Of a stretch of DNA of 51,269 bases, positions 8,390 to 15,242 are shown piece by piece. The DNA comes from a phage. The notes under the pieces were generated by a model that saw nothing but the letters and a program-made list of their open reading frames with translations, ran no database searches and was not told where the DNA came from. The DNA lies in sequence record PZ445518.1. One strand, 5' to 3'. Numbering within the stretch: the stretch's first letter is position 1; each line of letters starts with the position of its first letter. The translations under genes and the position numbers were made by a program.

Positions 8390-8822
8390 TTATAAGATCA
8401 GGGAATTTCACGGTGATATAAGCAGGTGGATTGATTCAGTAAGCAGCGGCCTTGTTGATTGCGTTGAAATGTTCGCGACAAACGTCCACGAGGATCTTGT
8501 AAAGCGTTCGCCAGTTGATACGGGCCGATATAAAGCTAACTGGCAGGTAACAGCAAACAAGCCGCCGCTATATGCTCTCAATCAATACGATCGCGATGGT
8601 AGTAAAACCATTGCAGAAGGCAAGCGAGCAATATATGCAATCATGCGGGGCGGTGGAGCGGTGCGGTCAATCTATTTTTCAAACATGCTTATTTACGCCA
8701 ATGCGCTTGAATACGGGCATTCAAAACAAGCGCCGTCCGGCGTGCTGGGAATCGTGGCGGTAAAGCTGCGATCCTATATGACTAAGGCAATAAAGGATTC
8801 GAGGGCAAAAAATGCACTATGA
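8370..8822 (+). CDS. neck / tail component (putative)
   Basis: 150-aa ORF overlapping neighbours; synteny only. Confidence 0.4.
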   Translation: MQCMADNYKIREFHGDISRWIDSVSSGLVDCVEMFATNVHEDLVKRSPVDTGRYKANWQVTANKPPLYALNQYDRDGSKTIAEGKRAIYAIMRGGGAVRSIYFSNMLIYANALEYGHSKQAPSGVLGIVAVKLRSYMTKAIKDSRAKNAL

Positions 8823-9213
8823 TTTAATGTTAGCGGCAAGAAAGGCGCTGGCGGAGGAATATGAATCACGATTCAAGATCGCCTATGAAAACGTTGATTT
8901 TGTTCCGCCTGGTGATGGTTCGATGTGGTTAAAATTTGACTACATGGAAGCCGACACAGATCGCATATCTCTTGATAGAAAATGCGTTTCTTATATCGGA
9001 TTGGTTCAGGTTGGAATTGTTATGCCTCCTGGCGGCGGCACTGATAAAGCGCGTTTGCTGGCTAAAGAGATTGCGAGATTTTTCTATGATGGTAGAATGT
9101 TTGAAACTGGCTATATTAGCGAGGGGGCAAACGTCCACGCATTACTAAAAAGTGAAACAGGTTGGTTCTTACCGATCCGTTTCAGTGTTAGGCTTGACAC
9201 AAAGGAGGAATAA
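8812..9213 (+). CDS. tail completion protein (putative)
   Basis: 133-aa ORF directly upstream of major tail gene. Confidence 0.4.
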   Translation: MHYDLMLAARKALAEEYESRFKIAYENVDFVPPGDGSMWLKFDYMEADTDRISLDRKCVSYIGLVQVGIVMPPGGGTDKARLLAKEIARFFYDGRMFETGYISEGANVHALLKSETGWFLPIRFSVRLDTKEE

Positions 9214-9215
9214 TC

Positions 9216-9878
9216 ATGCACTTGCCTAATGGTTCTCAAATTTTCATCGGCGTTAATATGGGTGATCCGATTCAGGCTACGGCTATTTCAAATGCTAATG
9301 ATCCTGTTTTTACGACTGCAAACACTCAAAGCATCAAAAAAGGCGCTTATGTTCTTATTGAAACATCTTCTTGGGGCAAACTTGTTAGTCGAGTGCTTCG
9401 AGTTAAGGAAGTATCAGGTAATGTAAGTGTTACTCTTGAGGGCGTTAGCACCAAAGATACAAACGTATTTCCAGAAGGAAAGAACACAGCAACTTTCCGA
9501 GAAGTGAAATCTTGGGTAGAGGTTCCTTGCGTGCAGGATCTTGCGCAGGACGGCGGCGAGCAACAGTATTACACTTATCAGTGTTTGGCTGATGACCAGG
9601 AGCAGCAGTTACCGACCTACAAGAGCGCGGTTTCTCTTACCTACACTTTCGCTCATGAATATGATAACCCGATTTATCCGATCTTGCGCGAGGCTGAGGA
9701 ATCCGGCGACGTAACCGCTTTGCGTATGTACGTGCCGAAAGCTAAAGAGATGCGTTGCTGGGCTGGCGTATTGTCTTTTAATGACATTCCGCAAACAACT
9801 ATGAACGAAATGGAAACTGTTTCCCTTTCTGTATCTCTGAAAGGCCGATTCACGTTCTTACCTTCCGACGTTAAGTAA
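9216..9878 (+). CDS. major tail protein (putative)
   Basis: 220 aa; RBS AAGGAGG; followed by strong terminator; upstream of chaperone and tape measure. Confidence 0.55.
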   Translation: MHLPNGSQIFIGVNMGDPIQATAISNANDPVFTTANTQSIKKGAYVLIETSSWGKLVSRVLRVKEVSGNVSVTLEGVSTKDTNVFPEGKNTATFREVKSWVEVPCVQDLAQDGGEQQYYTYQCLADDQEQQLPTYKSAVSLTYTFAHEYDNPIYPILREAEESGDVTALRMYVPKAKEMRCWAGVLSFNDIPQTTMNEMETVSLSVSLKGRFTFLPSDVK

Positions 9879-9881
9879 AAC

Positions 9882-9906
9882 AAGGGGCGTTGCGCCCCTT
9901 TTTTCA
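9882..9906 (+). terminator. rho-independent terminator after major tail gene
   Basis: AAGGGGCG ttg CGCCCCTT followed by TTTTTCATT. Confidence 0.7.
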
Positions 9907-9943
9907 TTCCTGTAAAATCAATCTATCAAATAAATTAATTCCA

Positions 9944-9965
9944 CTTTTAACAAAAAGTGCTATAA
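9944..9965 (+). repeat. conserved 22-bp element, inverted copy in late region
   Basis: CTTTTAACAAAAAGTGCTATAA just upstream of chaperone RBS; on minus strand it is followed after 19 nt by TAGATT. Confidence 0.5.
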
Positions 9966-9977
9966 GGAGATCTTAAG

Positions 9978-10295
9978 ATGGCAAAGATGAAACTAACGTT
10001 AGGCCCACTGCCTGATTTTAAGCTGCCTGTTTCTTTCGTGCTTCCAAATGGTGATGAGCAAGTTATTATTTTTACCGTGCGCCACAAGAAGGCAAGCGAA
10101 ATTCACGAACGATACACGGCAGAAAAGCCGATGAGCGACGTAGAAATGATCACCTTCCTTGCTTCCGGTTGGGATCTGGAAGATGAATTTAACGAGGAAA
10201 ACGTTGCTAAATTGCTGGATTATTACCCGTCTGCGTCATTATCGCTGACTGGTCATTATATGAAAGCGCTTGCGGGGCAGCGGGTAAAAAACTAA
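9978..10295 (+). CDS. tail assembly chaperone (lambda G-like)
   Basis: 105 aa, acidic; between major tail and tape measure genes; ends at slippery A_AAA_AAC. Confidence 0.65.
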   Translation: MAKMKLTLGPLPDFKLPVSFVLPNGDEQVIIFTVRHKKASEIHERYTAEKPMSDVEMITFLASGWDLEDEFNEENVAKLLDYYPSASLSLTGHYMKALAGQRVKN

Positions 10296-10612
10296 AGCGG
10301 GCGGTTTACCTGTTTTACCTCAAGCCGCCAACTGACGCACAATTAGAGGCCGTCGGCCTATCCCGTTCAGACTACGAAGGGGAGGAGCCGCCGGAGGTAA
10401 TTTTTGATGAATCAATGTTTCAATCTTGGGATCTGTTTTGCGCTATGCAGACGCAATGGAGATCGACTAGCGGCAGTGTGTATGGGTTCGACTATAACGT
10501 TTTGCCTATGCTTTTTGACATTTACAAGATTGAGGATCGGGAGATGGCGCTAAATGATTTGCGCATCATGGAACAAAAGGCGCTAGAAATGATTCATTCA
10601 AACAAAACATAA
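9978..10612 (+). CDS. tail assembly chaperone -1 frameshift fusion product (GT-like)
   Basis: Slippery heptamer A_AAA_AAC at 10286-10292; the -1 frame is open from there to the stop at 10612 and joins ORF 10415..10612. Confidence 0.5.
10286..10292 (+). promoter_or_regulatory. programmed -1 ribosomal frameshift slippery heptamer
   Basis: A_AAA_AAC in zero frame, ending one codon before the chaperone stop; -1 frame open to 10612. Confidence 0.5.
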
Positions 10613-10632
10613 GCGCCGCGAGGCGCTTTTTT
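10611..10632 (+). terminator. rho-independent terminator after chaperone frameshift ORF
   Basis: AGCGCC gcga GGCGCT followed by TTTTTTAA. Confidence 0.6.
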
Positions 10633-10651
10633 AATATCTGGAGGTTTTAAA

Positions 10652-13333
10652 ATGGCTGAAAAATACGCTGGCCTAACGCTAGGCGTTGACGTGTCGCAGG
10701 TCAACAATGCTGTTAAATCATTGCAGCAATTCAAGAAGGCAAACGACGACGCAAAAAAAAGCGTTAATGAATTTGTTGATTCTGAGGTTGTGGCCCGACA
10801 GCAAGCAAAACAGCTTGCCGAAGAACTGGCGCGCCAGAAAGCAGAATTTAAGAAAATCCAGGAGTCAATTGATCCCACTGCATCAAAGATTGATAAGCTG
10901 CGAAAGGCAGCGACACAGCTTGATGCGCTATGGAAAAAGGGCGTTGTTCCTGATCAGACTTTTTTTGAGCTTGGGGCAATTCTTGAGACGCAGCAAAACA
11001 AGCTGATCGCAACCAAAAAAGCGATGACAGAGGAAGGCCGCGCGGCGCTTGAGGAATCAAAGAACAAGGCGCGTGCAGCGGAAGAGGCTAAAAAATTCGT
11101 CCAGGCTTTGCGTGAGCAGGAAGAAGCAGCAGGAAAAAGCAAGTCTGAATTGCTGGAAATGAAAGCGGCACAGCTTGGAGTTAGCCAGGAGGCAGCACCT
11201 TACATCGCAAGGCTGAAAGAGCAGGAAAAGCAGATCCAGAAACTTGGGATTTCTACAGGCCAATACAAACAAGCAATGGCGCAATTGCCAATGCAGATCA
11301 CAGACGTGGTGACTTCACTTGCTTCTGGTATGCCAGTTTGGTTGGTCGCAGTCCAGCAGGGTGGACAGATCAAGGATTCTTTTGGTGGTGCATCCAATGC
11401 TTTAAAAGCGTTGCTATCTTTCCTGAATCCGGTAAACGTGGCGTTTGGCTTGCTTTCCGGCACGCTGGCAATTGCTGCATATAATGCCTACAAAGCACAG
11501 ACAGAGCTTGAGGCAATTAAAAAAACCGTTCAGGAAACAACTGGCTTGAGTGGTGAGTTTGCCGAAAAGATTGCTATAGGAATCAAGGAGCTTTCCGACA
11601 AGACAGGCGAAAGCGCCGAAGATCTGGCAAATGCTTACATCACCACGAAAGACGGCGCGAGCGAGGCGATTAAAAAACTGGTTGACGTTGGCATGACTTA
11701 TGATGACGCAAAAAAGAAAGTCAACGAGTACAAGGGCGCGTCTAGCTTTGTCAGCTTGAATAACGAAATTGCAAACCACAAAAACAAAGTCCTTGAGTTG
11801 GGCGATTCGTGGTATGAGGTTTTGAAAGCGAAGCGTGATTACGCTTCCCCGTCCGGCGGCCTGTTAGGTAAGGAGCTTGGCTATGTTAACCCTATGCTTA
11901 AGTTTGCACTTAACACTTATGAAGACATTGGAAAGGTCGTAAAAGATGCGAATAAGGACATGGCGGAACGAGCGGAGCGAATCGACAAAGAAAACCTGGC
12001 CTTAAACAGAGTGCGCGCAGCACAGGAGGCTTTAAACAAAGCCATTGAGGATCAGAAAAATGTGGCGCGTTCGGCTGATGAAGAACTGAAAAAGCGCGCG
12101 GCTGAAAACGTGGAGTTTAGGCGCAAAGAGCTTGAGGAAATCAAGAAGCAGGAGCAGAAAAAGAAAGAGGCTAAAGGGGGAATAGTTCGCGGCCCTACTG
12201 AGCAGCTTGATAAAGAGTTGTACGTTTTAAAGGCGCAACTGGAAACTCTTAAAGAGCATCGCACTGTTAACGATGTTATTTCTCGCCAGCGTAAATCTTT
12301 ATGGAGCATCGAAAAGCAGATCGAGATCCTGGAGAATGCGCAGAGCAAGCGTAAATTGACCGGAGCGGAACAGGCGCTACTAAACGAGCAAAAGGCCGTT
12401 CTTGAAATGGCAAGACAAAAAGCTGAGCTAGGGGATCAGATTGTTTTGCAGGAGCGCAAAAACAAGCTGGAGCAAGATAGTCTTAAGTTTATCCGTGAAA
12501 CTGAGGCTGCTATTGATGCGATTGGCCTTAAGCAACTTGGCTACACTGAAAAGCAGATCGAGCGTGAGCTAGAGTTACGCAAGCTGCGCACCGACTACGA
12601 GGCGCAAGGCGGAAGCGTTAGCGACGAAGTTTTTCAGCAAATGGAGACGAAACTTAAGCTGTATTACCAGGCACAAGACGAGGCGCAAGGCAACTGGTTA
12701 GCCGGAGCAAAGAACGCATGGGAGCTATTCGCGGAAGATGCAAACAATGCCTATGGCAATGTTCAGCAGATCGCAAGCGAGGCGTTAAACGGCCTTACAA
12801 ACCAATTAGCGAATTTTATCGCTACTGGCAAGGCAAACTTTAAAGACTTCTCGACGGCTATCATCAAAATGATTATTCAGATGATCACGAAAATGGTCGT
12901 CTTTAATGCGTTATCTGGCCTGATGGGTGGTCAAACCTGGACGATGGGGAGCTTGCTTAAGAATATTGGCGGATTTGCTGGCGGTGGATACACTGGCGAC
13001 GGCGGGAAGTATGAGCCAGCCGGAATTGTCCATAAAGGTGAATTTGTCATGACGAAGGAGGCGACGCAGCGTATTGGGGTAGGAAACTTGTACCGCATGA
13101 TGCGAGGCTATGCTAACGGCGGCGTTGTTGGTAGTTCCGGCTATACTGGCGGTGGCGCTGTAACTGGTGGAGCACCTCAATTTAACATCGGCGGGATTGA
13201 TGTTAGCATCACTAACGGAAACGATCCGAAGGGCATCGAAACTGGTGTTAAGATGATCTTTACTGATATGATTAAACGTTCCTGTATGCAGGGCGGCGAG
13301 GTTTACGAATTTGTTATGAGCAAGCGAGGTTGA
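10652..13333 (+). CDS. tail tape measure protein
   Basis: 893 aa, long coiled-coil-type Ala/Lys/Glu/Gln-rich stretches, Gly-rich C-terminal part; canonical position. Confidence 0.85.
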   Translation: MAEKYAGLTLGVDVSQVNNAVKSLQQFKKANDDAKKSVNEFVDSEVVARQQAKQLAEELARQKAEFKKIQESIDPTASKIDKLRKAATQLDALWKKGVVPDQTFFELGAILETQQNKLIATKKAMTEEGRAALEESKNKARAAEEAKKFVQALREQEEAAGKSKSELLEMKAAQLGVSQEAAPYIARLKEQEKQIQKLGISTGQYKQAMAQLPMQITDVVTSLASGMPVWLVAVQQGGQIKDSFGGASNALKALLSFLNPVNVAFGLLSGTLAIAAYNAYKAQTELEAIKKTVQETTGLSGEFAEKIAIGIKELSDKTGESAEDLANAYITTKDGASEAIKKLVDVGMTYDDAKKKVNEYKGASSFVSLNNEIANHKNKVLELGDSWYEVLKAKRDYASPSGGLLGKELGYVNPMLKFALNTYEDIGKVVKDANKDMAERAERIDKENLALNRVRAAQEALNKAIEDQKNVARSADEELKKRAAENVEFRRKELEEIKKQEQKKKEAKGGIVRGPTEQLDKELYVLKAQLETLKEHRTVNDVISRQRKSLWSIEKQIEILENAQSKRKLTGAEQALLNEQKAVLEMARQKAELGDQIVLQERKNKLEQDSLKFIRETEAAIDAIGLKQLGYTEKQIERELELRKLRTDYEAQGGSVSDEVFQQMETKLKLYYQAQDEAQGNWLAGAKNAWELFAEDANNAYGNVQQIASEALNGLTNQLANFIATGKANFKDFSTAIIKMIIQMITKMVVFNALSGLMGGQTWTMGSLLKNIGGFAGGGYTGDGGKYEPAGIVHKGEFVMTKEATQRIGVGNLYRMMRGYANGGVVGSSGYTGGGAVTGGAPQFNIGGIDVSITNGNDPKGIETGVKMIFTDMIKRSCMQGGEVYEFVMSKRG

Positions 13334-13335
13334 TA

Positions 13336-13686
13336 ATGAAGTTGGATCAGTTTAAGTGGTGTACGCAGGTTCAGAACGGCGGCGGGTCCATGACGTCATC
13401 AAATAACGATCGAGAGATTGCATTCGGTAACGGATACACTCAGGTAGCATCTGGAGGTTTTAACACAATCCGGCGAGAGTTTAGCATTGTTTACGCTGGG
13501 CTTGATTACAGAGATGTTGTCAAGTTCCTGAATGAGCACAGGCTAAAACCTTTCTTGTGGATCATGCCAGATGGAAGCCCTGGATTGTTTAGGGTTAAAA
13601 GCGGTAGCGTCGGGCTTACCCCATTGTCGCCAACCGTTCAGGAAGTAAAAGCCACTTTTACGGAACAATTTACATCAATGCAGTAA
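13336..13686 (+). CDS. minor tail protein (lambda M-like)
   Basis: Small ORF immediately after tape measure; synteny with lambda-type tail tip module. Confidence 0.55.
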   Translation: MKLDQFKWCTQVQNGGGSMTSSNNDREIAFGNGYTQVASGGFNTIRREFSIVYAGLDYRDVVKFLNEHRLKPFLWIMPDGSPGLFRVKSGSVGLTPLSPTVQEVKATFTEQFTSMQ

Positions 13687-13749: not shown

Positions 13750-14511
13750 ATGGCTAATAAAGAATCAGGTAGAGTTGAATTTGAGAACTGCCTACAAAGT
13801 TTGTACCCAGGCGAAATTATAACGCTTGTAGAGATTGACGGGACGAAGTTCGGAGCAAATATTTACCGATTTCACAATGAGAACATCTCTTATACTGCCG
13901 AGGAATTAATGCAAGCGCAGCAAACCGGAATCTTGCCGCCGAAAGATATTATTTTTCAGGGTGATGTTTACGGAGCGCGGCCTTTCGGTGTGAGCGGGAT
14001 TAACTTCACAAGTAACGGCAGGGCAGATAAGCCTCAGCTTATAGTGTCAAACCTTGACAGCAGGGTGAGCGCCATGATCAGAAATTACAATGGCATGATG
14101 CAAGCAAAGGTGACTTTCTGGATAACGGCAAAGGAATTTATCGGAGAAGGCGGAGCAATCAAAGATGGCGCTTACAGAAAATTGGTTTATTACATTGAGC
14201 GCCCAAGCCAGTACAATAGAGAGATAGCGAAATTTGATCTAACATCGCCTTACGATATGGATGGATTAATGATCCCGCCGCGCATCACTCAAAGCGTCTG
14301 CTATTGGGCGCAAAGGGGGTGGTACAGGAGCGGAAAGGGTTGCTCTTATAACGGATCGGCAATGTTCGATAAAGACAATAAGCCAGTAACAGATCCATCA
14401 CAAGACTATTGCGCCGGAACTGTAACGGCTTGCAAATTGAGGTTCGGTCAGCAAAACGAGTTGGATTTCGGCGGTTGCGCGGTGGCGTCACTGCTACGGA
14501 GGAATCAATAA
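13750..14511 (+). CDS. minor tail protein (lambda L-like)
   Basis: 253 aa with C-terminal Cys cluster (C..C..C..C) as in L-type tail tip proteins. Confidence 0.65.
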   Translation: MANKESGRVEFENCLQSLYPGEIITLVEIDGTKFGANIYRFHNENISYTAEELMQAQQTGILPPKDIIFQGDVYGARPFGVSGINFTSNGRADKPQLIVSNLDSRVSAMIRNYNGMMQAKVTFWITAKEFIGEGGAIKDGAYRKLVYYIERPSQYNREIAKFDLTSPYDMDGLMIPPRITQSVCYWAQRGWYRSGKGCSYNGSAMFDKDNKPVTDPSQDYCAGTVTACKLRFGQQNELDFGGCAVASLLRRNQ

Positions 14512-15242
14512 TGATTAGTGCAAAAATTAAACTTGAAATAATGCAGCACGTTAAAGAGGAATACCCTAAAGAGGCTTGCGGCGTCATAACTCAAAAGTCA
14601 CGGGTACAGAAATATCACCGCATAACCAACGTGCATGACGATCCAGAAAATCACTTTGAAATGGACGCCGTAGAATACGCTGAATCGCTCGACAAAGGCG
14701 AATTAATCGCGGTGGTGCATTCCCATTGCGGGGATGGTGCTAGCACGATACCGAGCGCGCACGACTCATGTATGTGCGATGAAATGGGTGTATCGTGGAT
14801 TATAGTTTCATGGCCCGAAGGTGATATGAGAATTGTCGAGCCGCAGGAGAGGCCGCTTATCGGTCGCCCGTGGTCGCTGGGGTCGTTCGATTGCTGGGGT
14901 CTTATCATGGCATGGCATAAACAGCACGGAGTAGTATTGAATGACTTCCGAAAGCCTTACGAGTGGTGGAAGTCAGAATATGGTGAAAATCTTTACCAGG
15001 ATAATTATTTGAAAGAGGGATTTGTTGAAACTAACGAGCCTCCAAAACCTGGTGATATGGTGATTATGCAACTATCATCACCAGTCTGGAATCATGCGGG
15101 AATTTATTTGGGTAACAACCAGCTATTACATCATGCGTTTGGAAAGCTATCTCGCATCGACTTGTATTCTGGATGGTATCAGGAGCACACTGTAAAAATT
15201 TGCCGACATAAGGATCTGAAATATGACATTGAAAGTAATTAA
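14511..15242 (+). CDS. tail assembly protein (lambda K-like, JAB/MPN + NlpC/P60)
   Basis: ATG at 14511 after GGAGG; HSHCGDGAS...SAHD JAMM-like motif followed by Cys/His hydrolase region. Confidence 0.7.
   Translation: MISAKIKLEIMQHVKEEYPKEACGVITQKSRVQKYHRITNVHDDPENHFEMDAVEYAESLDKGELIAVVHSHCGDGASTIPSAHDSCMCDEMGVSWIIVSWPEGDMRIVEPQERPLIGRPWSLGSFDCWGLIMAWHKQHGVVLNDFRKPYEWWKSEYGENLYQDNYLKEGFVETNEPPKPGDMVIMQLSSPVWNHAGIYLGNNQLLHHAFGKLSRIDLYSGWYQEHTVKICRHKDLKYDIESN

What the first reader, a model, noticed from the sequence alone, without database searches (positions are those of the whole stretch)
9978..10612. Programmed -1 frameshift in the tail assembly chaperone at A_AAA_AAC
The chaperone ORF ends ...GTA AAA AAC TAA. 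The zero-frame heptamer A_AAA_AAC (10286-10292) is a classic slippery site. The -1 frame from that point is open for about 108 codons and runs into ORF 10415..10612, ending just before the tape measure gene. This reproduces the lambda G/GT arrangement, so the roughly 120 bp between the two annotated ORFs is coding, not intergenic.
Basis: partly seen in the sequence, partly recalled or inferred. Interest (0 to 1): 0.45.

Follow-up and report, generated by a model that had tools for sequence, protein, structure and literature searches.

The report
Tail chaperone frameshift, already known
This T1-like phage very probably makes a long and a short form of its tail assembly chaperone when ribosomes slip back one base at A_AAA_AAC, a textbook phage trick already annotated at the identical site in sister phages, so it corrects an annotation rather than revealing anything new.

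Summary
ORF 9978-10295 (Pfam Phage_TAC_4) ends GTA AAA AAC TAA. The only in-frame X_XXY_YYZ heptamer in the ORF is A_AAA_AAC at 10286-10292. The -1 frame is open for 106 codons from 10292 to the stop at 10610-10612 and encodes a DUF1799 domain.

The 119 nt "gap" (10296-10414) is under purifying selection in that frame. It has no start codon of its own.

The heptamer plus the adjacent stop is invariant in 45 distinct relatives, while neighbouring synonymous sites vary. More distant phages keep a slip motif at the same spot: A_AAG, A_AAA_G or G_GGA_AAC plus stop.

The window is a Warwickvirus (Drexlerviridae), 100% identical over 9200-13400 to Shigella phage JK16. JK16's record does not annotate the fusion. 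Phage TLS (tfmS) and Stevie annotate it as a joined CDS over this same sequence, Sparks does so at a variant slip site, and the Stevie genome paper mentions it.

The downstream hairpin (10300-10307 / 10322-10329) is weak here and is not conserved across the family, so its role is open.

Verdict: correct, most likely lambda G/GT-like -1 ribosomal frameshifting, already known. No experiment on this phage group was found.

The parts
9216..9878 (+). Tail tube (major tail) protein gene, the upstream neighbour
   Evidence: PF08813 Phage_tail_3, E 4.3e-62.
9882..9900 (+). Terminator-like hairpin plus T run between the tail tube gene and the chaperone gene
   Evidence: Consensus scan. A terminator is annotated at the equivalent place in T1, Stevie and Sparks.
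9964..9969 (+). Shine-Dalgarno AAGGAG, 8 nt before the ATG of the chaperone gene
   Evidence: Read from the sequence. A ribosome-binding site is annotated at the same place in Stevie and Sparks.
9978..10295 (+). Short chaperone ORF (G-like, TfmA), 105 aa, zero frame
   Evidence: PF08748 Phage_TAC_4, E 2.6e-31, full length. phrog_17368 positions 1-107. Annotated TfmA in JK16.
10286..10292 (+). Slippery heptamer A_AAA_AAC
   Evidence: Only in-frame X_XXY_YYZ in the ORF. Invariant in 45 distinct relatives. The preceding codon is always GTA or GCA, although the amino acid varies.
10293..10295 (+). Zero-frame stop TAA, immediately 3' of the heptamer
   Evidence: A stop lies 0-1 codon after the slip motif in every relative examined, including Vibrio and Ralstonia phages.
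10292..10612 (+). -1 frame extension (T-like), 106 codons plus stop. Joined to 9978-10292 it gives a 211 aa fusion, with base 10292 read twice.
   Evidence: Open frame. PF08809 DUF1799 at extension residues 23-101. phrog_17368 positions 109-211. Purifying selection across the bridge. tblastn covers at least 80% of the extension in 1113 of 1138 phage records, and the match starts at residue 1 in 57 of the 60 records listed.
10300..10329 (+). Candidate stimulatory hairpin: GGCGGUUU (10300-10307) pairs with AAGCCGCC (10322-10329), 14 nt loop, 7 nt after the heptamer
   Evidence: MFE -13.2 kcal/mol, z -1.5, 14 of 200 shuffles fold as well. Stronger in T1 and TLS, absent in several relatives. Status inconclusive.
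10611..10628 (+). Terminator-like hairpin plus T run between the extension and the tape measure gene
   Evidence: Consensus scan. A terminator is annotated at the equivalent place in T1 and Stevie.
10652..13333 (+). Tape measure protein gene, the downstream neighbour
   Evidence: PF06791 TMP_2 and PF09718 Tape_meas_lam_C.

Best explanation
Most ribosomes translating the chaperone mRNA terminate at TAA 10293-10295 and release the 105 aa chaperone. A small fraction slip back one base on A_AAA_AAC (10286-10292), resume at CTA 10292-10294 and read on to TAA 10610-10612. This yields a 211 aa fusion: the complete chaperone followed by a 106 aa DUF1799 domain, with junction ...QRVKN|LKRAVY... if both tRNAs slip.

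By analogy with lambda G/GT, the shared N-terminal part should coat the tape measure protein, and the extension should recruit the tail tube protein. The two forms would be needed in a fixed, strongly skewed ratio.

Shown here: the frames, the heptamer, coding constraint in the bridge, the lack of an independent start, family-wide conservation, and the domain identities. Inferred: that slippage actually occurs, its rate (likely below 10%, since A_AAA_AAC is a low-efficiency motif in E. coli), the roles of the adjacent stop and the hairpin, and the assembly function.
For: - Frames, heptamer and open -1 frame.
- Pfam PF08748 and PF08809, plus the flanking tail tube and tape measure genes.
- A single PHROG profile (phrog_17368, 213 positions) matches the short ORF on positions 1-107 and the extension on 109-211. 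Fused proteins of this family are therefore already in databases.
- The bridge 10292-10414 evolves like protein in the -1 frame: pN 0.07-0.36 against pS 0.66-0.97.
- The -1 frame has no canonical start between 10211 and 10415. The first possible start sits at residues 5 to 68 in relatives.
- The heptamer plus TAA is identical in 45 distinct sequences whose chaperone identity falls to 57%. GTA/GCA, AAA and AAC never take a synonym, while upstream Gly, Ala, Arg and Gln codons use all synonyms.
- Distant relatives keep a -1 slip motif at the same place: Rogue1 A_AAG, Sparks A_AAA_G, phiES15 and SO-1 A_AAA_AAC, Ralstonia and Vibrio phages G_GGA_AAC plus stop.
- The same site lies under a joined CDS in TLS (tfmS) and Stevie, and Sparks carries one at its variant site.
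- A_AAA_AAC is a proven natural -1 site in E. coli in an insertion-sequence cluster. The motif is among the more frequent ones in the IS1 and IS3 families, and it is of low efficiency (PMC4066793).
Against: - I found no direct detection of the fusion protein for this phage or any T1-like phage. The T1 genome and proteome paper and Xu et al. 2004 were not available.
- A_AAA_AAC is a poor shifter in E. coli (PMC4066793, PMC5009743).
- No strong conserved stimulator was found. The hairpin in this window is not better than shuffles (z -1.5). RNAalifold finds no consensus structure. There is no conserved upstream Shine-Dalgarno-like element.
- Met42 of the extension (ATG 10415) is conserved in most Drexlerviridae, so some internal initiation cannot be excluded.
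Confidence: 0.9

Rival explanations
1. The fusion arises by transcriptional slippage. RNA polymerase adds one extra A in the A6 run (10286-10291), so a minority of mRNAs encode the fusion in one frame, with junction ...VKK|LKRAV....
For: The site is a run of six A. phiES15 and SO-1 have seven. The protein outcome would be nearly identical, so comparative data on frames cannot separate the two.
Against: Relatives that keep the same two-frame arrangement have motifs without a long homopolymer: Rogue1 GCAAAGG, Sparks GCAAAAG, Ralstonia and Vibrio phages GGGAAAC. These fit tRNA re-pairing but not polymerase slippage. From general knowledge, efficient slippage by E. coli RNA polymerase needs runs of about 9 or more. 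What is conserved is the codon register (X_XXY_YYZ plus stop), not run length.
Confidence: 0.04
2. There is no fusion. The downstream ORF is translated on its own from ATG 10415 as a 65 aa protein, and 10296-10414 is a non-coding spacer, as several GenBank records annotate it.
For: ATG 10415 exists, and the Met is conserved in most Drexlerviridae. Records such as JLBYU01 and Phunderstruck annotate 10415-10612 as a separate CDS.
Against: - The spacer evolves as protein in the -1 frame.
- The DUF1799 match begins 19 residues upstream of the ATG.
- The tblastn match to the extension covers at least 80% in 1113 of 1138 records and starts at residue 1 in 57 of the 60 records listed.
- The nearest GGAGG (10393-10397) is 17 nt from the ATG and is not conserved.
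- Sparks, SO-1, phiES15 and HBM00 lack a start at that column. In SO-1 the first possible start is residue 68 of 105.
Confidence: 0.03
3. The site is the same and the event is ribosomal, but a single tRNA slips rather than the classical pair. Either tRNA-Asn slips in the P site while the slow-to-decode TAA occupies the A site (a 'shifty stop'), or tRNA-Lys slips in the P site before Asn is decoded. This is a sub-variant of the best explanation, not an alternative outcome.
For: The zero-frame stop directly abuts the motif in all relatives, across different motif types. Rogue1, Sparks and HBM00 have only tetramer-type motifs (A_AAG, A_AAA_G), which work by single-tRNA slippage in E. coli (PMC4066793). 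No conserved RNA stimulator was found.
Against: Nothing here discriminates between the variants. The perfect heptamer is conserved at all seven positions in 45 sequences. That is more than a single-tRNA slip would require.
Confidence: 0.3

Closest known systems
Phage TLS tfmA/tfmS, Citrobacter phage Stevie and Klebsiella phage Sparks tape measure chaperones (Drexlerviridae and relatives)
   Same: Same protein families and same gene position. TLS and Stevie carry the identical signal GTA AAA AAC TAA, followed by GGGCGGTTT...AAACCGCC, under a joined CDS. [quoted passage not shown] U136B was annotated the same way (PMC8104045).
   Different: This window's hairpin lacks the inner CUG/CAG helix, because Gln is replaced by Leu (CTC). 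It also has a U-G in place of a U-A pair, so it is weaker: -13.2 against about -15.5 kcal/mol. Sparks uses A_AAA_G rather than the heptamer. The nearest records (JK16, JLBYU01, Phunderstruck) do not annotate the fusion.
Phage lambda G / G-T tail assembly chaperone frameshift (Levin et al. 1993; Xu, Hendrix and Duda 2004, 2013, 2014)
   Same: Two ORFs lie between the tail tube gene and the tape measure gene. The second is in the -1 frame with no start of its own. There is a slippery heptamer near the end of the first ORF. A fusion sharing the whole N-terminal chaperone is expected as a minority product (roles and the 30:1 ratio as summarised in PMC5009743).
   Different: Lambda uses G_GGA_AAG, which is efficient in E. 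coli. Here the motif is A_AAA_AAC, which is inefficient. From my own knowledge, the lambda site lies a few codons before the G stop, whereas here the stop directly abuts the heptamer. No Pfam family other than PF08748 and PF08809 matches, even at E up to 10, so there is no detectable sequence membership in lambda's G and T families.
IS1-type -1 frameshift on A_AAA_AAC
   Same: Same heptamer, decoded by E. coli ribosomes. The A_AAA_AAC insertion-sequence cluster is a proven case with low efficiency and no established stimulator (PMC4066793). The motif is well represented in the IS1 and IS3 families. That this cluster is IS1 itself is my own knowledge.
   Different: Different genes and purpose (transposase dosage). 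From my own knowledge, the zero-frame stop in IS1 is not directly adjacent to the heptamer.
HK97-like tail assembly chaperone frameshift cluster (Antonov et al. 2013)
   Same: A phage tail chaperone -1 frameshift measured at 6-7% in E. coli reporters (PMC3711429). This gives the expected order of magnitude.
   Different: Different chaperone family and slip site. No measurement exists for the family studied here.

Membership tests
Conserved tail assembly chaperone G/GT frameshift of long-tailed phages (Xu, Hendrix and Duda 2004) | Two ORFs located between the major tail (tube) gene and the tape measure gene | tested here: met
   PF08813 tail tube at 9216-9878, chaperone ORFs at 9978-10612, PF06791/PF09718 tape measure at 10652-13333.
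Conserved tail assembly chaperone G/GT frameshift of long-tailed phages (Xu, Hendrix and Duda 2004) | The second ORF overlaps the first in another frame and has no conserved start of its own | tested here: met
   The -1 frame is open from 10211. It has no ATG/GTG/TTG before 10415. The first possible start varies from residue 5 to 68 among relatives.
Conserved tail assembly chaperone G/GT frameshift of long-tailed phages (Xu, Hendrix and Duda 2004) | A slippery sequence in the overlap, conserved among relatives | tested here: met
   A_AAA_AAC at 10286-10292 is the only heptamer in the ORF. It is invariant in 45 distinct sequences. Alternative slip motifs occupy the same place in distant relatives.
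Conserved tail assembly chaperone G/GT frameshift of long-tailed phages (Xu, Hendrix and Duda 2004) | A fusion protein made at a low, fixed ratio, required for tail assembly and absent from virions | not testable with these tools
   Needs protein analysis and genetics. No report for T1-like phages was found in the searchable library.
Pfam PF08748 Phage_TAC_4 (tail assembly chaperone) | Score above the gathering threshold over the full profile | tested here: met
   108.9 bits against a cutoff of 21.1, residues 1-105 on profile positions 1-124 of 124.
Pfam PF08809 DUF1799 (extension domain) | Score above the gathering threshold | tested here: met
   48.0 bits against a cutoff of 26, extension residues 23-101 on profile positions 3-80 of 80.
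Lambda gpG and gpT sequence families | A detectable sequence match to lambda's own G and T Pfam families | tested here: not met
   At E up to 10, only PF08748 and PF08809 are reported for the two parts. The resemblance to lambda lies in arrangement and presumed mechanism.
Tail assembly chaperone fold (solved chaperone structures) | Structural similarity of the N-terminal domain to solved tail assembly chaperones | tested here: inconclusive
   Single-sequence AlphaFold2 models had pLDDT 44.6 (G part) and 65.0 (extension). The Foldseek search of BFVD with the extension returned only a 78% identical homologue. No PDB relative was found by sequence.
Structure-stimulated -1 frameshift signals (dnaX, IS3/IS911 type) | A conserved downstream hairpin or pseudoknot 5-9 nt after the heptamer | tested here: inconclusive
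   An 8 bp hairpin lies 7 nt downstream, -13.2 kcal/mol, z -1.5. It is strong in T1 (z -5.5) and TLS (z -3.8). It is absent in Rtp, Rogue1, L026 and phiES15. 82.8% of cells pair, with little covariation. RNAalifold finds no consensus. Synonymous variability is reduced at stem sites in one clade.
Structure-stimulated -1 frameshift signals (dnaX, IS3/IS911 type) | A conserved upstream Shine-Dalgarno-like stimulator | tested here: not met
   The G-rich stretch at 10274-10277 is a Gly codon that takes GGG, GGC, GGT and GGA among relatives.

The most novel reading that the evidence does not exclude
In the PF08748/DUF1799 chaperone family, the conserved signal may not be heptamer plus RNA structure. 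It may be a slip motif placed directly against the zero-frame stop (a 'shifty stop'). This placement is kept from Drexlerviridae to Dhillonvirus, Vibrio and Ralstonia phages, even as the motif itself changes. The short:long chaperone ratio would then be set by competition between termination and slippage, and could respond to release factor activity in the infected cell.
Probability: 0.25. Interest if true: 0.35.

Novelty: already known. Interest (0 to 1): 0.12.

Why it matters
The value is practical. The closest public records (JK16, JLBYU01, Phunderstruck and many others) either leave 10296-10414 unannotated or call the second half a separate hypothetical protein. The reading given here corrects them by transferring an annotation that TLS and Stevie already carry at the same site. 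It adds nothing conceptually new to phage biology or to recoding. The one mildly interesting point is family-wide: a low-efficiency heptamer is always placed directly against the stop codon, and that could be tested as a termination-dependent frameshift.

Tried and rejected
- Stop codon readthrough was rejected. The zero frame after TAA runs only 17 codons to the next stop.
- The +1 frame was rejected. It is open for only 13 codons after the stop.
- ORF 10404-10553 (zero frame), preceded by GGAGG at 10393-10397, was rejected as a gene. The GGAGG is Pro-Glu-Val coding sequence in the -1 frame and is absent in TLS.
- An upstream Shine-Dalgarno stimulator was rejected.
- The Rfam scan of 9800-10800 gave only sub-threshold sRNA hits lying over the terminator at 9871-9955 and nothing at the frameshift site.
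- RNAalifold gave no consensus structure.
- My first pair count used a mis-registered structure string and should be ignored. The corrected count is.
- The PDB sequence search gave nothing. NCBIfam gave nothing.
Single-sequence models of the two halves were of low confidence. The fold search was uninformative.
- Xu et al. 2004 and the T1 genome paper could not be read.
- The genome-wide count of long -1 frames after stops (14 of 87) is not a valid null, because it includes ordinary overlapping downstream genes.
- The verdict did not depend on them.

Full report
**What the window is.** Region 9200-13400 is 100% identical to Shigella phage JK16 and 97-99% identical to many Escherichia phages of the genus Warwickvirus (Drexlerviridae, the T1-like phages). 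Around the finding the gene order is as follows:
- tail terminator, 8812-9213
- tail tube protein, 9216-9878 (PF08813)
- the 105 aa ORF, 9978-10295 (PF08748 Phage_TAC_4, E 2.6e-31)
- the listed ORF 10415-10612
- tape measure protein, 10652-13333 (PF06791, PF09718)
- lambda-like minor tail genes

**The observation.** In the frame of ORF 9978-10295 the 3' end reads CGG GTA AAA AAC TAA. A_AAA_AAC occupies 10286-10292 in the X_XXY_YYZ register and is the only such heptamer in the zero frame of the ORF. The -1 frame is open from 10211. From CTA at 10292 it runs 106 sense codons to TAA at 10610-10612, in phase with ORF 10415-10612. Only 31 of 20000 shuffles of 10296-10612 keep the frame open that long. 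The heptamer by itself is not unusual, with 29 copies in the window against 20.6 expected.

**Is the 119 nt gap coding?** Four lines of evidence say yes.
- No start codon. There is no ATG, GTG or TTG in the -1 frame between its upstream stop and 10415. The stretch could therefore only be translated by ribosomes arriving from the chaperone ORF.
- Purifying selection. In codon-threaded alignments with relatives, the bridge (extension residues 1-41) has non-synonymous differences of 0.07-0.36 per site against synonymous differences of 0.66-0.97. The annotated part shows the same pattern.
- Domain boundary. The Pfam DUF1799 match covers extension residues 23-101, so it starts 19 residues upstream of the annotated ATG.
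- Homology from the first residue. A tblastn search with the extension covers at least 80% of it in 1113 of 1138 phage records. In 57 of the 60 records listed the match starts at residue 1, down to about 30% identity. In 9 of the 10 records I then fetched, the match begins one base before the chaperone's stop codon; in Vaitephage the match starts further in, but the frame is still -1.

In addition, one PHROG profile of 213 positions matches the chaperone on positions 1-107 and the extension on 109-211. Fused proteins of this family are therefore already catalogued.

**Is the slip site under selection?** I collected 45 distinct sequences carrying the region from public viral contigs and GenBank records. 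The search pattern left the relevant synonymous positions free.
- All 45 have the heptamer followed by TAA, although chaperone identity falls to 57% in T1.
- The codon before the Lys codon is Val or Ala but always ends in A (GTA or GCA). Lys is always AAA and Asn is always AAC.
- The Gly, Ala, Gln and Arg codons just upstream use all their synonyms.
- Two public sequences with five A instead of six also carry other frame breaks. I take them to be homopolymer sequencing errors.

**More distant relatives** keep the two-frame arrangement and a -1 slip motif at the same place:
- Rogue1: A_AAG GTC TAA
- Sparks: A_AAA_G TT TAA
- HBM00: A_AAG CAC TAA
- phiES15, SO-1 and PaulFeyerabend: A_AAA_AAC TAA
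- a Ralstonia phage: G_GGA_AAC TGA
- Vibrio phage Vaitephage: G_GGA_AAC TAG

The first possible in-frame start of the extension ranges from residue 5 to residue 68. No conserved independent initiation exists.

**Mechanism.** The best reading is -1 ribosomal frameshifting on the heptamer. It gives the 105 aa chaperone as the main product and a 211 aa fusion as the minor one. With tandem slippage the Asn is incorporated and the next codon is CTA, so the junction is ...QRVKN|LKRAVY... and the fusion contains the entire short protein.

A_AAA_AAC is a low-efficiency motif in E. coli. It is nevertheless the site of a proven insertion-sequence frameshift with no established stimulator (PMC4066793; PMC5009743). 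That this element is IS1 is my own knowledge. Low efficiency fits the strongly skewed ratio reported for lambda, about 30:1 (PMC5009743), and the 6-7% measured for an HK97-like chaperone cluster (PMC3711429).

The rate here is unknown. The assembly roles are inferred from lambda, not tested: the shared N-terminal part binding the tape measure protein, and the extension recruiting the tail tube protein.

**Stimulators.**
- In this window. An 8 bp hairpin exists, with 10300-10307 pairing to 10322-10329, a 14 nt loop and a start 7 nt after the heptamer. At -13.2 kcal/mol it is not clearly better than shuffled sequence (z -1.5; 14 of 200 shuffles fold as well).
- In relatives that have it. T1 and TLS have the same hairpin with an extra inner helix, and it stands out there (z -5.5 and -3.8). 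SO-1 has a different hairpin at the same 7 nt spacing (z -2.2).
- In relatives that lack it. Rtp, Rogue1, phiES15, the Ralstonia phage and one Tempevirinae lineage (L026) have none. In L026 three synonymous changes remove it.
- Across the alignment. In 28 sequences 82.8% of cells pair, but with little covariation. RNAalifold returns no consensus structure.
- Synonymous sites. In the 34 sequences that encode R-A-V...K-P-P, the synonymous sites inside the stem are much less variable (third-position entropy 0.19-0.67 bits) than four-fold sites just outside it (1.1-1.7 bits). This hints at selection in that clade.

I put the chance that the hairpin stimulates shifting in this phage at roughly 0.4-0.5. 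No conserved upstream Shine-Dalgarno-like element exists. The feature conserved everywhere is the zero-frame stop directly after the motif, the classical 'shifty stop' context (Weiss et al. 1987, my own knowledge). This leaves open a single-tRNA, termination-competing variant of the mechanism.

**Rivals.**
- Transcriptional slippage on the A6 run would give a nearly identical fusion with junction VKK|L. It is unlikely because relatives with GCAAAGG, GCAAAAG or GGGAAAC keep the arrangement without a long homopolymer.
- Independent translation from ATG 10415 cannot account for the conserved coding bridge or the domain boundary.
- Readthrough and +1 shifting lead to short, unconserved frames.

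**Comparison with what is known.** The arrangement and likely mechanism are those of lambda G/GT. The proteins belong to other sequence families (PF08748 and PF08809 only), the heptamer differs, and the stop abuts it.

Within the T1-like phages the frameshift is already recognised:
- The TLS record joins tfmS across GTA AAA AAC TAA.
- Stevie carries a joined CDS over the same sequence, and Sparks carries one labelled 'frameshift product' at its variant site.
- U136B was annotated by hand in the same way (PMC8104045).
- For Rogue1 a G-T type fusion was proposed (PMC3496638).

The records closest to this window do not annotate it. I found no experimental demonstration for any member of this phage group.

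**Verdict.** The feature is a known kind, already annotated in close relatives at the identical sequence. Its value is as an annotation correction. Interest is low.

Noticed in passing
window 9882-9900 and 10611-10628: Terminator-like GC hairpins with T runs bracket the chaperone cassette, one after the tail tube gene and one between the extension and the tape measure gene. Five such sites were found in 9700-10800 against 1.3 expected in shuffles. Terminators are annotated at the equivalent places in T1 and Stevie. They may attenuate transcription to set tail protein ratios.
   Followed up: partly
window 10753-10760: A run of eight A lies inside the tape measure gene and forms an in-frame A_AAA_AAA heptamer. 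The -1 frame stops after 4 codons, and the run is absent from TLS, T1, Stevie, Rogue1 and Sparks. It is probably incidental, but it is a likely hotspot for slippage or sequencing error.
   Followed up: partly
L014 1801-1815 and L030 1800-1815: Two public sequences have five A instead of six at the slip site, along with other frame breaks in the same genes. They are IMGVR_UViG_2974632794 and IMGVR_UViG_2706796530. The second is 41085 bp, the same length as Salmonella phage 36. These look like homopolymer sequencing errors rather than natural variants.
   Followed up: partly
window 10393-10553: GGAGG at 10393-10397 is followed by TTG 10404 and ATG 10407 in the zero frame, opening a 49 aa ORF (10404-10553) inside the extension. 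The GGAGG is coding sequence of the -1 frame and is not conserved in TLS. It is probably spurious, but a gene caller could pick it up.
   Followed up: partly
window 9871-9955, minus strand: A sub-threshold Rfam hit to the sRNA family STnc50 (33.8 bits against a gathering score of 55, E 0.001) lies over the terminator and the intergenic region upstream of the chaperone gene. It is most likely driven by the terminator hairpin.
   Followed up: no
window 14409-15242: The K-like ORF is listed from a TTG that overlaps the preceding gene (13750-14511) by about 100 nt. An ATG at 14511 overlaps that gene's stop by one base and looks like the real start. This resembles the tight gene junctions annotated in T1.
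   Followed up: no
L002 (JK16, MK962751) 1597-1952; L001 and L003: Public annotation of this locus is inconsistent. JK16 leaves the whole extension unannotated. JLBYU01 and Phunderstruck call 10415-10612 a separate CDS. Several RefSeq and other records label both ORFs 'tail length tape measure protein'. Only TLS, Stevie and Sparks, among those inspected, carry a joined CDS.
   Followed up: yes
whole window: ARAGORN found no tRNA or tmRNA genes. The phage therefore relies on host tRNA-Lys and tRNA-Asn at the slip site.
   Followed up: yes
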